A stretch of DNA of 64,000 nucleotides from Clostridia bacterium (GCA_024405515.1 JAKSOR010000003.1:5655-69654); one strand, 5' to 3'; counted from the stretch's first letter, positions 2,015 to 7,517 are shown. Numbers and translations are program-made. The notes: generated by a model from the letters alone, not told the origin.

Positions 2015-2202
2015 AGTGAGCTCCTTTTATCTAAATTAATATTAGTACAAACATTATATTCTTTGATTACCCCAAAGTCAATTGTACTTTTGTTTTTGCA
2101 TCTCCATTCTACATCTATGAGTATGACAAGTTAGGGACACAATATGTATGGTATTTTGAGATTTTTCTTGCTATTTTTGACATGTTCGTATAATATTTTT
2201 GT

Positions 2203-2350
2203 GTAGGGTGCAGAAATAAATTTCTGATAATCGGGAAGACGGTGCAAATCCGTCACAGCCCCCGCTACTGTGAGTTTTAAATGCGATACGTCACCGAGAG
2301 GGAAGACACGCAGCTGGGAAATCAGTAACAAGCCAGGATACCGGCCCACA
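2203..2350 (+). promoter_or_regulatory. cobalamin (B12) riboswitch aptamer
   Basis: gggaagacggtgcaaatccgtcacagcccccgctactgtgag (2233-2274) matches the conserved GGGAA..GGTG.AA.TCC...CCCGC.ACTGT core. agccaggataccggcc (2331-2346) matches the B12 box. It sits directly 5' of a lipoprotein / ECF S-component pair. Confidence 0.85.
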
Positions 2351-2370
2351 AAAATATTTGTCTGTCATTC

Positions 2371-4872: not shown

Positions 4873-4903
4873 TATATCTAAACAGAAAAACTAGAGGTAC
4901 AAA

Positions 4904-6694
4904 ATGAAAAAACTTACTTCTGAAGAATTGAGAAAAATCTATCTGGATTTTTACAAATCCAAAAACCATGCTGTAATAGGTGCAGCATCTTTAATTCCGG
5001 AAAACGATCCGACTGTATTATTCACAACAGCCGGAATGCATCCGCTTGTTCCGTATCTTCTCGGAGAAAAGCATCCGGCAGGCAACCGTCTTACCGATGT
5101 TCAGATTTGTGTAAGAACAGGTGATATTGATGAAGTCGGAGATGCTTCTCACTGCACATTCTTTGAAATGCTCGGAAGATGGTCTCTCGGAGATTATTTC
5201 AAAAAGGACACAATAGCATGGTCTTATGATTTTCTGTTAAACTATCTTGAATTTGACAAAGATAAATTTGCTGTCACGGTTTTTGCCGGAGATGATGACT
5301 GTCCGAGGGATGATGAAAGTGCATCATACTGGAAGGAACAGGGAATTTCTGAAGACAAAATCTTTTTCTGTAACAAAAAGCATAACTGGTGGGGACCGGC
5401 CGGAATTACAGGCCCGTGTGGACCTGATACGGAAATGTTTATCGATACAGGCAAACCTAAATGCTCTGATGACTGTTCACCGGCATGTGACTGCGGAAAA
5501 TATCTTGAAATCGGAAACGATGTATTCATGCAGTATTTTAAAGAGACAGATGGCACTCTCAGTCCTCTGAAACAGAAAAACGTTGATGAAGGTATGGGAC
5601 TTGAAAGAATGCTTTGCATTCTTAATGGATATAAATCAGTATACGAGACCGACCTGTTCAGCTTTGCAATAGAAAAACTTGAGGAGCTCAGCGGAAAGAA
5701 ATACGGGGAAGATGAGGATATGACAGTGGCAATGAGAATAATTGCCGACCATACAAGAACAGCCACATTCCTTCTCGGTGATATCAAAGCTGTTTCTCCG
5801 TCAAATGTTGATCAGGGTTATGTCCTCAGAAGACTTATCAGAAGAGCGATGAGATACTGCAGAACTCTCGGCATTGATGATACAGCTCTTGTTGAACTTG
5901 CAAAACTTTATGTCAAAAAATATGAAAATGCATATCCGCATATCAAAGACAATGAGGAAAGAATTGTAAGTGAACTTGAACAGGAAAGAGATAAATTTGC
6001 AAAGACAATTGAACAGGGCCTCAAAGAATTTGACAAAATTCTTGCACATCTCCCTGAAGGAATGACAGTATTCCCGGGAAAGACAGCCTTCAGACTTTAT
6101 GATACTTTCGGATTCCCGATTGAAATGACAGAGGAAATTGTAAAGGAAAAGGGATATTCACTAGACCGTGAAGGATATGACAAAGCTTTCCAGGCTCATC
6201 AGGAATTATCAAAAGCAGGAGCAGAACAGAAATTCAAGGGCGGACTTGCAGACGGCGGAGAACTTACCGCAAGACTACACAGTGCAACACATCTTATGAA
6301 TGCTGCATTAAAAATTGTTCTTAATGATAACGGCATTCAGCAGAGAGGAAGCAATATCACCGCAGAGAGACTGCGTTTTGACTTCAATTTCCCGCGTCCT
6401 CTTACCGAAGAAGAGATTAAGAAAGTTGAGGATATTGTAAACGAGGAAATCAAAAAAGGCAGCGAAGTCAAACTTGAGGAGATGTCTGTTGCACAGGCAA
6501 AAGAGCAGGGTGCAGTAGGTGTGTTTGATAACAAGTACGGTGATGTCGTTAAGGTTTACACAATCGGTATCTCCAAAGAAATATGCGGCGGACCGCACTG
6601 CAAAAACACATCTGAACTCGGTACGTTCAAAATTATAAAAGAGCAGTCTTCCTCGGCAGGCGTAAGAAGAATCAAAGCTGTGTTAGAGTACTAA
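4904..6694 (+). CDS. alaS: alanine--tRNA ligase, short form (596 aa, no C-Ala domain)
   Basis: N-terminus has FTTAGMHPLVPYLLG, FFEMLGRWSLGDYFK and GMGLERM, all AlaRS catalytic-domain signatures. Editing Zn motifs are HSATH (aa 459-463) and CGGPH (aa 561-565). Confidence 0.85.
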   Translation: MKKLTSEELRKIYLDFYKSKNHAVIGAASLIPENDPTVLFTTAGMHPLVPYLLGEKHPAGNRLTDVQICVRTGDIDEVGDASHCTFFEMLGRWSLGDYFKKDTIAWSYDFLLNYLEFDKDKFAVTVFAGDDDCPRDDESASYWKEQGISEDKIFFCNKKHNWWGPAGITGPCGPDTEMFIDTGKPKCSDDCSPACDCGKYLEIGNDVFMQYFKETDGTLSPLKQKNVDEGMGLERMLCILNGYKSVYETDLFSFAIEKLEELSGKKYGEDEDMTVAMRIIADHTRTATFLLGDIKAVSPSNVDQGYVLRRLIRRAMRYCRTLGIDDTALVELAKLYVKKYENAYPHIKDNEERIVSELEQERDKFAKTIEQGLKEFDKILAHLPEGMTVFPGKTAFRLYDTFGFPIEMTEEIVKEKGYSLDREGYDKAFQAHQELSKAGAEQKFKGGLADGGELTARLHSATHLMNAALKIVLNDNGIQQRGSNITAERLRFDFNFPRPLTEEEIKKVEDIVNEEIKKGSEVKLEEMSVAQAKEQGAVGVFDNKYGDVVKVYTIGISKEICGGPHCKNTSELGTFKIIKEQSSSAGVRRIKAVLEY

Positions 6695-6695
6695 A

Positions 6696-7517
6696 ATGAG
6701 ATACTGCGATTCACATGTGCATTCATTAAACTCACACGACGGACATATTTCGCTCGGCGAGATTGTTGCTATAGCCAAAGAGAAAGGTCTTGAGTATTTA
6801 TCGATTACTGATCACTGTGATTATGATTTTGAATTCGGCGGATGTTCGGCACCGGTTAAGTGGGGATCTCTGAATATTGACAAGTATTACGAAAACTACA
6901 AAAACGAAAAAAAGAAGCTTGATGCAGACAAAACCAACACTTTAAACCTTTGTTTCGGAATTGAGGCAGCATTCTGCGATGAACAGGAATGCTATAAAAA
7001 TTATCAGGAAACGATAGCAAAATATCCGTTTGATGTGATTATCAATTCCGTTCACTGCGTTAATAAAAAGGATGTTTATTTCAAATCGGCATTCCTTTTC
7101 AAGAAGAAAGAACAGGTTTACGGGGATTATCTTGACACCATTTTAAAGAGTTTAGATGCTCCGTACCAGTATGAGATAGTTGCCCATATCGGTTACATTG
7201 CTCACGGTGCTCCGTATAAGGACAGATTTATAAGATATGCTGATTTTCCGGACAAAATAGATGCCATACTTAAAGGCATAATTGAAAGAGGAAAAGTCCT
7301 TGAGGTAAATTTCCATCATGAAATGAATCCTCCGAGAGATATCATTGAGAGATACTATCAGCTTGGTGGAAGAAAAGTCAGTTACGGAAGTGACGCACAC
7401 AGGGGAGATATCTGTAAAGAATATGAGAATGTCAGCAATATGCTAAGGGAAATAGGATTTACACACTACTCTGTTTTTGTGCAGCATAAAGAGATTCTTA
7501 TTCCTATCGGTGAATAA
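6696..7517 (+). CDS. PHP-family phosphoesterase (histidinol-phosphatase HisJ-like)
   Basis: N-terminal CDSHVHS..HDG, ITDHCD and a C-terminal SDAH are PHP metal-binding motifs. About 270 aa. Starts 2 nt after the alaS stop. Confidence 0.6.
   Translation: MRYCDSHVHSLNSHDGHISLGEIVAIAKEKGLEYLSITDHCDYDFEFGGCSAPVKWGSLNIDKYYENYKNEKKKLDADKTNTLNLCFGIEAAFCDEQECYKNYQETIAKYPFDVIINSVHCVNKKDVYFKSAFLFKKKEQVYGDYLDTILKSLDAPYQYEIVAHIGYIAHGAPYKDRFIRYADFPDKIDAILKGIIERGKVLEVNFHHEMNPPRDIIERYYQLGGRKVSYGSDAHRGDICKEYENVSNMLREIGFTHYSVFVQHKEILIPIGE

What the first reader, a model, noticed from the sequence alone, without database searches (positions are those of the whole stretch)
4904..6694. Short AlaRS: no C-Ala domain and an AlaX-S-like minimal editing domain
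The alaS ORF is only 596 aa. The HxxxH editing motif (HSATH) sits at aa 459-463, only ~20 residues after the end of the aminoacylation/tRNA-recognition region. CxxxH (CGGPH) is at aa 561-565, with just 31 residues left before the stop. In E. coli AlaRS (~875 aa) these motifs lie around residues 564-568 and 666-670. There they are preceded by a ~100-aa beta-barrel editing subdomain and followed by ~200 aa that include the C-Ala oligomerisation/tRNA-binding domain. The next gene starts 2 nt after the stop, so the missing parts are not simply split off downstream. The architecture therefore looks like a catalytic core plus an AlaX-S-type editing module. This raises questions about Ser/Gly mis-charging control, oligomeric state and whether a trans-acting AlaX or second alaS exists.
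Basis: partly seen in the sequence, partly recalled or inferred. Interest (0 to 1): 0.6.

Follow-up and report, generated by a model that had tools for sequence, protein, structure and literature searches.

The report
Small AlaRS of gut Christensenellales
This gut bacterium, like its whole order, loads alanine onto tRNA with a naturally shortened synthetase that keeps only the catalytic part and a minimal proofreading module; this short form already has a database model and a name in one preprint, but I found no biochemical test of it.

Summary
Window 4904-6694(+) encodes an intact 596-aa AlaRS with HSATH at 459-463 and CGGPH at 561-565. It lacks the ~110-aa beta-barrel subdomain and the ~180-aa linker plus C-Ala of E. 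coli AlaRS.

It is not a truncation or an accessory copy:
- It is the only AlaRS hit in this 87%-complete Christensenellales MAG.
- 40 of 41 genomes sampled from the order carry the same short form and no long one (32 of 32 high-quality genomes).
- About 1 in 10 sampled Clostridia genomes also has the short form as its sole AlaRS.

The genome has no AlaX and no free C-Ala. It does have DTD and a tRNA-Ala with G3:U70. Zinc, editing-site and acceptor-stem residues are conserved. The editing core has AlaX-S size and fold, but its sequence is that of an AlaRS cis-editing core (44-51% versus 23-25% identity), so it arose by trimming, not by AlaX capture.

The architecture is already known. It matches NCBIfam NF002436 end to end and is the "small-AlaRS" of bioRxiv 10.1101/2023.05.29.542759. 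This scan had met the family before in Patescibacteria. I found no biochemical study. A conserved F-K-G-G-L motif in the flexible linker may be a vestigial glycine-rich loop; this is untested.

The parts
4893..4898 (+). Ribosome-binding site AGAGGT, 6 nt before the ATG
   Evidence: Read directly from the sequence
4904..6694 (+). alaS, small-AlaRS, 596 aa plus TAA stop
   Evidence: ORF list and translation. NF002436 scores 911.6 bits against a 529 cut-off, covering protein 5-595 and model 2-593 of 595
4904..6235 (+). Catalytic and tRNA-recognition (ATL) domains, aa 1-444
   Evidence: PF01411 matches 8-444, profile 1-436 of 552. Foldseek TMt is 0.87-0.93 to AlaRS catalytic fragments 9jdn, 3hxu and 1riq. 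E. coli N303 and D400 align to N301 and D400; R71, D228 and G230 are invariant among 48 small-AlaRS
6218..6259 (+). Flexible linker, aa 439-452, carrying the conserved F-K-G-G-L motif (aa 444-448, nt 6233-6247)
   Evidence: pLDDT is below 50 for residues 439-449. Among 48 small-AlaRS, F444 occurs in 43, G446 in 42, G447 in 44 and L448 in 40. The H432-to-H463 spacing is 32 residues in most short forms
6260..6691 (+). Editing core, aa 453-596, of AlaX-S extent; ends at the last strand of the core
   Evidence: AlaXM model NF040865 matches only positions 95-233 of 234. PDB sequence hits are 3wqy 597-732, 1v4p 5-136 and 2e1b 95-215. Foldseek to AlaX-S 1v7o, 1wnu and 1v4p gives TMt 0.82-0.84
6278..6292 (+). 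HSATH zinc and editing motif (aa 459-463; E. coli 564-568)
   Evidence: H459 and H463 are invariant in 48 sequences
6584..6598 (+). CGGPH zinc and editing motif (aa 561-565; E. coli 666-670)
   Evidence: C561, P564 and H565 are invariant
6696..7517 (+). Downstream PHP/HisJ-family phosphatase gene (context only, not a piece of AlaRS)
   Evidence: PF02811 at E 1e-22 and TIGR01856. The linkage to alaS is kept only in close relatives, 35 of 80 loci

Best explanation
The gene encodes the cell's only alanyl-tRNA synthetase, a 'small-AlaRS'. Shown: it has a complete class II catalytic domain and tRNA-recognition domain. A roughly 10-15 residue flexible linker follows, then an editing core that stops where the canonical enzyme's helical linker and C-Ala would begin. 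The beta-barrel subdomain is absent. Inferred mechanism: the enzyme charges tRNA-Ala by reading G3:U70 in the acceptor stem through the conserved Asn301 and Asp400 (E. coli N303 and D400), without the tRNA-elbow contact that C-Ala provides. It is probably a monomer, because the dimerising helical part of C-Ala is missing. Ser-tRNA-Ala is probably hydrolysed by the tethered zinc editing core, which would work much like an AlaX-S held on a leash. In that picture the core re-captures the acceptor end, rather than having it handed over along a rigid barrel and C-Ala scaffold. The conserved F-K-G-G-L in the linker may supply the glycine-rich loop that the beta-barrel contributes in canonical AlaRS and AlaX-M. 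Gly-tRNA-Ala can additionally be cleared by the genome's D-aminoacyl-tRNA deacylase. In evolutionary terms the protein is a trimmed AlaRS. It belongs to a large, old family of small-AlaRS shared with other Clostridia lineages and, according to the preprint, with CPR bacteria and some archaea.
For: Identity and completeness: NF002436 matches full length at 911.6 bits, and the Pfam architecture agrees. The model has pLDDT 92.3, with only residues 439-449 disordered. Fold matches to AlaRS catalytic fragments and to AlaX-S are strong.
Sole copy: there is one PF01411 hit in G000. In the order, 40 of 41 genomes (32 of 32 high-quality ones) have one short AlaRS and no long one. All 15 short-form genomes in the class sample have a single PF01411 match.
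No helper proteins: tRNA_SAD hits are AlaRS and ThrRS only. The one DHHA1 hit is RecJ.
Active sites: H459, H463, C561, H565, Q480, G482 and R589 are invariant in 48 diverse small-AlaRS. T462, S483 and R588 align to E. coli T567, S587 and R693; R588 is Arg in 43 of 48 and T462 is Thr in 39 of 48. N301 and D400 align to E. coli N303 and D400.
Substrate: tRNA-Ala(CGC) on contig C1 has G3:U70.
Trimming rather than capture: the editing core has median 44% identity to long AlaRS (34-52%), against 23-25% to AlaX-S.
Monomer inference: E. coli AlaRS 1-700 is monomeric and active (PMC4649089 abstract), and the helical subdomain of C-Ala mediates dimerisation (PMC8887476).
Precedent for function without C-Ala: the Tupanvirus mini-AlaRS and the Aquifex N453 fragment (PMC10036535).
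Against: No activity of any small-AlaRS has been measured in the literature I could search. Aminoacylation efficiency, editing, oligomeric state and the role of F-K-G-G-L are therefore all inferences. Deleting C-Ala from E. coli or A. fulgidus AlaRS sharply lowers aminoacylation (PMC8887476), so some compensation must exist and I have not identified it. The linker has low model confidence, and I could not inspect coordinates to see whether the GG loop lies near the zinc site. The MAG is 87% complete and only 22 tRNA genes were found, so absence of AlaX rests partly on relatives. Two of 40 relatives in the order do carry an AlaX-L/M-like gene.
Confidence: 0.82

Rival explanations
1. The short gene is an accessory paralogue, and a canonical full-length alaS lies in the unassembled 13% of the genome.
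For: G000 is only 87% complete and lies in 80 contigs. Only 22 tRNA genes were recovered.
Against: Among 40 relatives, 32 of them at least 90% complete and some single-contig, every genome with a hit has exactly one AlaRS match and it is the short form. The other hits are ThrRS. The same holds for the short-form genomes elsewhere in the class.
Confidence: 0.03
2. The gene is truncated by a sequencing or assembly error or a recent frameshift, so it is a pseudogene or a split gene.
For: None was found. The idea rests only on the unusual length.
Against: The match to a 595-position curated model runs end to end. Eighty independent assemblies end at the same residue. The stop is followed one base later by an unrelated, conserved gene. 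The model ends on a complete beta-strand of the editing core.
Confidence: 0.01
3. The C-terminal module is a captured AlaX-S: a free-standing trans-editing gene became fused to a bare aminoacylation core.
For: The module has exactly AlaX-S extent and fold, with TMt 0.82-0.84. It is joined by a flexible linker.
Against: Its sequence is much closer to AlaRS cis-editing cores (34-52% identity, 51% to a canonical Clostridial enzyme) than to AlaX-S (23-25%). Forms exist that lack only the barrel (P0066) or only C-Ala (P0075, P0080). This points to stepwise deletion from a full-length enzyme.
Confidence: 0.07
4. The editing module is retained but inactive or repurposed, and fidelity relies on DTD and on discrimination at the synthetic site.
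For: In P. horikoshii the barrel-less AlaX-S is reported to have narrower activity than AlaX-M (my recollection of Sokabe 2005 and Fukunaga 2007, not re-read here). DTD is present.
Against: The zinc ligands and editing-pocket residues are invariant or nearly so across 48 small-AlaRS that share only about 40-55% identity. That pattern indicates purifying selection on catalysis.
Confidence: 0.07

Closest known systems
[quoted passage not shown]
   Same: The three-domain architecture is identical: catalytic, ATL and editing domains, with no cradle-loop barrel and no C-Ala. The protein matches the model full length at 911.6 bits against a 529 cut-off.
   Different: The preprint names CPR, Thermoplasmatota, DPANN and Asgard hosts. 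Here the host is a gut Christensenellales (Clostridia) with 1.2-3.2 Mb relatives, and the enzyme is the sole AlaRS across the sampled order. The preprint reports no biochemistry.
Canonical bacterial AlaRS (E. coli AlaS, 876 codons; TIGR00344)
   Same: The catalytic and recognition core is 40% identical and the editing core 44% identical. The HxxxH and CxxxH motifs, Q584, S587, R693, N303 and D400 are all conserved.
   Different: The window protein lacks E. coli residues ~450-559 (beta-barrel with the FYAESGGQ glycine-rich loop) and ~700-876 (helical dimerisation linker and globular C-Ala).
AlaX-S trans-editing protein (P. horikoshii PH0574; PDB 1v4p, 1wxo, 1wnu, 1v7o)
   Same: The fold and extent equal those of the C-terminal module, with TMt 0.82-0.84. 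Both have the zinc site and neither has an N-terminal barrel.
   Different: AlaX-S is free-standing and only 23-25% identical. The window module is covalently tethered and is AlaRS-like in sequence.
Tupanvirus mini-AlaRS (PMC10036535)
   Same: Both are naturally shortened AlaRS that must work without C-Ala by gripping the acceptor stem.
   Different: The viral enzyme also lacks the editing domain and the conserved Asn and Asp residues. The window protein keeps both.
C. elegans mitochondrial AlaRS with a residual C-Ala (PMC8887476)
   Same: Both show natural loss of most of C-Ala.
   Different: The nematode enzyme keeps a ~54-residue remnant of C-Ala and serves T-arm-less tRNAs. Here the tRNA-Ala is a normal cloverleaf.

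Membership tests
small-AlaRS / NCBIfam NF002436 (PRK01584) | Full-length match above the curated cut-off | tested here: met
   911.6 bits against 529; protein 5-595 aligns to model 2-593 of 595
small-AlaRS / NCBIfam NF002436 (PRK01584) | Class II AlaRS catalytic and ATL (tRNA-recognition) domains present | tested here: met
   PF01411 profile 1-436 at E 3e-135; Foldseek TMt about 0.9 to catalytic fragments
small-AlaRS / NCBIfam NF002436 (PRK01584) | No cradle-loop (beta) barrel between ATL and editing core | tested here: met
   PF01411 positions 437-552 and AlaXM positions 1-94 are unmatched. There are 23 residues between S436 and H459, against 126-142 in long forms
small-AlaRS / NCBIfam NF002436 (PRK01584) | No C-Ala domain | tested here: met
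   No DHHA1 match. There are 31 residues after CxxxH, against about 190-250 in long forms
small-AlaRS / NCBIfam NF002436 (PRK01584) | Editing core with HxxxH and CxxxH retained | tested here: met
small-AlaRS / NCBIfam NF002436 (PRK01584) | Alanylation of tRNA-Ala and deacylation of Ser-tRNA-Ala | not testable with these tools
   Requires enzyme assays
Canonical four-domain AlaRS (TIGR00344) | Catalytic, recognition, full editing (barrel plus core) and C-Ala domains in one chain | tested here: not met
   TIGR00344 scores above its cut-off (602.6 against 457) but in two stretches, the best covering 1-432 of 847. The barrel and C-Ala are absent
AlaX-S | Free-standing ~150-aa editing core | tested here: not met
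   The module is fused to the synthetase. The fold matches, but the sequence is closer to AlaRS cis-editing cores
Mini-AlaRS (Tupanvirus type) | Aminoacylation domain only, no editing domain | tested here: not met
   An editing core is present

The most novel reading that the evidence does not exclude
The beta-barrel has been reduced to its one functionally needed element. On this reading, the near-invariant F-K-G-G-L in the otherwise flexible linker is a vestigial glycine-rich loop that closes over the zinc site. This monomeric enzyme would then still clear both Ser- and Gly-tRNA-Ala by re-capturing the acceptor end in a 'tethered trans-editing' mode. An entire order of human-gut Clostridia, including cultivable Christensenella-type relatives, would depend on this mode. 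That would give a tractable counter-example to the textbook view that the AlaRS four-domain prototype is universal.
Probability: 0.3. Interest if true: 0.5.

Novelty: already known. Interest (0 to 1): 0.3.

Why it matters
Specialist papers still state that AlaRS keeps one four-domain prototype throughout biology. The exceptions they list are L. major, N. equitans, nematode mitochondria and a giant virus (PMC8887476 and PMC10036535). A barrel-less, C-Ala-less AlaRS as the sole enzyme of a whole order of common gut bacteria shows that the prototype is dispensable in ordinary free-living cells. It also offers a natural system to ask how tRNA-Ala is bound and how Ser and Gly mischarging is controlled without the elbow-binding domain. 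The architecture itself is already modelled (NF002436) and named (small-AlaRS). The value here is therefore context and a few testable details, not a discovery.

Tried and rejected
- The listing of cluster members on ten short representatives returned no names or accessions, so it gave no taxonomy.
- I recalled that Borrelia AlaRS is ~594 aa. A paper search on AlaRS and Borrelia gave nothing relevant from the titles and abstracts, so I do not use this.
- A third weak tRNA_SAD hit in some genus relatives looked like a possible AlaX. It is a second ThrRS without the TGS domain.
- The single DHHA1 hit in the genome is RecJ, not a free C-Ala.
- The downstream PHP phosphatase and the upstream acyltransferase-like gene are linked to alaS only in close relatives (35 and 40 of 80 loci). 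I infer no functional coupling.
- A Cys4 cluster at residues 187-197 looked special. It occurs in 47 of 80 long AlaRS as well, so it is not a small-AlaRS feature.
- No T-box or other leader lies before alaS. Rfam finds only a cobalamin riboswitch in the window.
- Strict monophyly of short forms is not supported. The catalytic-core tree needs at least 4 changes on well-supported branches, and part of this is explained by chimeric long forms. I did not run an AU test.
- I could not read model coordinates, so the position of the GG loop relative to the zinc site is untested.

Full report
**Observation**

Window 4904-6694(+) is an uninterrupted 596-codon ORF with a good ribosome-binding site. HSATH lies at residues 459-463 and CGGPH at 561-565, 31 residues before the stop. 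I fetched E. coli K-12 alaS (L114). The alignment shows two clean deletions relative to E. coli: about residues 450-559 and about 700-876.

Pfam tRNA-synt_2c matches only positions 1-436 of its 552-position profile. tRNA_SAD matches residues 549-590, and DHHA1 is absent. The next gene starts one base after the stop and is a PHP/HisJ-family phosphatase.

**Is it real and is it the only one?**

NCBIfam NF002436 (PRK01584) is a 595-position equivalog model named alanine--tRNA ligase. It matches end to end at 911.6 bits against a cut-off of 529. Eighty related loci from independent assemblies align over residues 1-595 and stop at the same place. Truncation by error is therefore excluded.

The assembly is 1.24 Mb, 80 contigs and 87% complete. 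In it:
- PF01411 hits only this gene.
- tRNA_SAD hits only this gene and ThrRS.
- The one DHHA1 hit is RecJ.

Because the MAG is incomplete, I checked relatives. Forty of 41 genomes sampled from the order, and 32 of 32 high-quality ones, have one full-length NF002436 match in a frame of about 600 aa and no long AlaRS. The remaining weak hits are ThrRS, and one of them proved to be a TGS-less second ThrRS. Two relatives (G032, G027) carry a free-standing AlaX-L/M-like gene with a barrel segment and tRNA_SAD. None of the 24 genus genomes sampled does.

In an even sample of 150 Clostridia genomes, most have AlaRS of about 880 aa. Fifteen, including this one, have a short form as their single PF01411 match. 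These fall in the Christensenellales families f1 and f18 and in five other families.

**Anatomy**

An AlphaFold2 model built on 48 diverse small-AlaRS has mean pLDDT 92.3. Only residues 439-449 fall below 50. The main features are:
- Residues 1-440 superpose on AlaRS catalytic fragments with TMt 0.87-0.93.
- The C-terminal ~150 residues cover all of AlaX-S (1v7o, 1wnu, 1v4p; TMt 0.82-0.84) but only half of AlaX-M (0.51).
- Sequence matches to PDB agree: A. fulgidus AlaRS 597-732, AlaX-S 5-136 and AlaX-M 95-215.
- The chain ends on the last strand of the editing core.

By sequence, however, the module is an AlaRS cis-editing core. Its identity is 44% to E. coli, 51% to a canonical Clostridial enzyme, and a median 44% to 81 long forms, against 23-25% to AlaX-S. 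The representative library also contains AlaRS that lack only the barrel (P0066, with DHHA1) or only C-Ala (P0075, P0080). Both facts favour stepwise trimming of a full-length AlaRS over capture of an AlaX-S.

**Functional residues**

- H459, H463, C561, H565, Q480, G482 and R589 are invariant across the 48 sequences.
- T462, S483 and R588 align to E. coli T567, S587 and R693. R588 is Arg in 43 of 48 sequences and T462 is Thr in 39 of 48.
- In the aminoacylation half, R71, D228 and G230 are invariant.
- N301 and D400 align with E. coli N303 and D400, the G3:U70-reading pair.
- The one tRNA-Ala gene recovered (CGC anticodon, contig C1) has G3:U70.
- DTD is present. [quoted passage not shown]

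**Mechanism (inferred)**

The enzyme most likely charges tRNA-Ala through the acceptor stem alone. It is probably monomeric: E. coli 1-700 is monomeric and active (PMC4649089), and the helical part of C-Ala mediates dimerisation (PMC8887476). It most likely edits Ser-tRNA-Ala with a flexibly tethered core.

One detail I could not explain away concerns the linker. The model predicts it to be disordered, yet it has a fixed length and a near-invariant F-K-G-G-L: F in 43, G in 42, G in 44 and L in 40 of 48 sequences. Canonical AlaRS have a conserved FY(A/G)E(S/A)GGQ loop inside the barrel. From memory, this is the 'glycine-rich loop' that lies near the zinc site in AlaX-M (Fukunaga and Yokoyama 2007; not re-read here). 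The small-AlaRS motif may be its remnant. This is a hypothesis only.

**Evolution**

A maximum-likelihood tree of the catalytic and ATL region (82 rows, LG+G4) gives three results:
- All Clostridial short forms fall in one large, mostly short clade.
- The ordinary long Clostridial enzymes sit elsewhere, with E. coli.
- Well-supported branches force at least four short/long changes.

One nested long group (G137, G110, P0014) is sister, with 100% support, to a short form from a ~1-Mb Christensenellales genome. Its N-terminal half is nearest to small-AlaRS, while its barrel, editing and C-Ala parts are nearest to a canonical long enzyme (P0084). It therefore looks recombinant. The representative library holds roughly 70 distinct short-form clusters at 50% identity among the best 150 hits, so the family is large and old.

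**Comparison with what is known**

The architecture was described and named 'small-AlaRS' in bioRxiv 10.1101/2023.05.29.542759. That preprint defines it as catalytic, ATL and editing domains, without the cradle-loop barrel and C-Ala, and reports it from CPR, Thermoplasmatota, DPANN and Asgard genomes. It is the only paper in the searchable library that uses the term.

AlaRS specialist papers still describe a universal prototype. The exceptions they list do not include this form. I found no biochemical study. Earlier notes of this scan had already met NF002436-type short AlaRS in Patescibacteria.

**Verdict**

What this window adds:
- The host range: a whole order of gut Clostridia uses it as the sole AlaRS.
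- Evidence that the editing module is a trimmed AlaRS core.
- The conserved linker motif.

Noticed in passing
L115:561-2891 (protein P0002); also P0159-P0162: These are small-AlaRS 56-61% identical to the window protein, with a ~185-aa histidine-phosphatase domain inserted. The insert is PF00300 at E 3e-38, with the RHG motif present. It sits in the catalytic-domain beta-hairpin, between window residues ~216 and 221. Five 90%-identity clusters carry it, on contigs up to 1.14 Mb, and L115 (P0002) has the same downstream PHP gene as here. An earlier scan note (e1-1322847) reported a similar insert in CPR-like bacteria.
   Followed up: partly
P0008 (representative library): This small-AlaRS has a Ham1/ITPase domain (PF01725, E 1e-44) inserted at residues ~379-552. 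It matches earlier scan notes on Moranbacteria.
   Followed up: no
L107 (G137), L106 (G110), P0014: These ~890-aa AlaRS of two other Clostridia families look chimeric. The catalytic half is nearest to Christensenellales small-AlaRS (50-57% identity; 100% branch support beside short G123). The barrel, editing core and C-Ala are nearest to a canonical long enzyme, P0084 (58-64%).
   Followed up: partly
P0066; P0075, P0080 (representative library): These are intermediate AlaRS architectures. P0066 has no barrel but has C-Ala (DHHA1 present). P0075 and P0080 have the barrel but no C-Ala. The two losses are therefore separable.
   Followed up: partly
L116:631-1848(-) in G032; L117:688-2007(+) in G027: These are free-standing AlaX-L/M-like proteins of 405 and 439 aa, with a barrel segment and tRNA_SAD. 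They occur in 2 of 40 relatives in the order and in none of the genus genomes sampled.
   Followed up: partly
L092:129-1895(-) in G003, and six other genus relatives: This is a second ThrRS of 588 aa that lacks the N-terminal TGS domain. It occurs in 7 of 24 genus genomes and was not found in this MAG.
   Followed up: partly
window 2189-2362 (+): A cobalamin riboswitch (RF00174, 95.9 bits) is the only Rfam family above threshold in the window. No T-box leader precedes alaS, lysS or any other gene in the window.
   Followed up: no
G000 contig C1:93988-94063 (outside the window): tRNA-Ala(CGC) has a second wobble pair, G5:U68, in addition to G3:U70. Only 22 tRNA genes were found in the whole MAG.
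   Followed up: no
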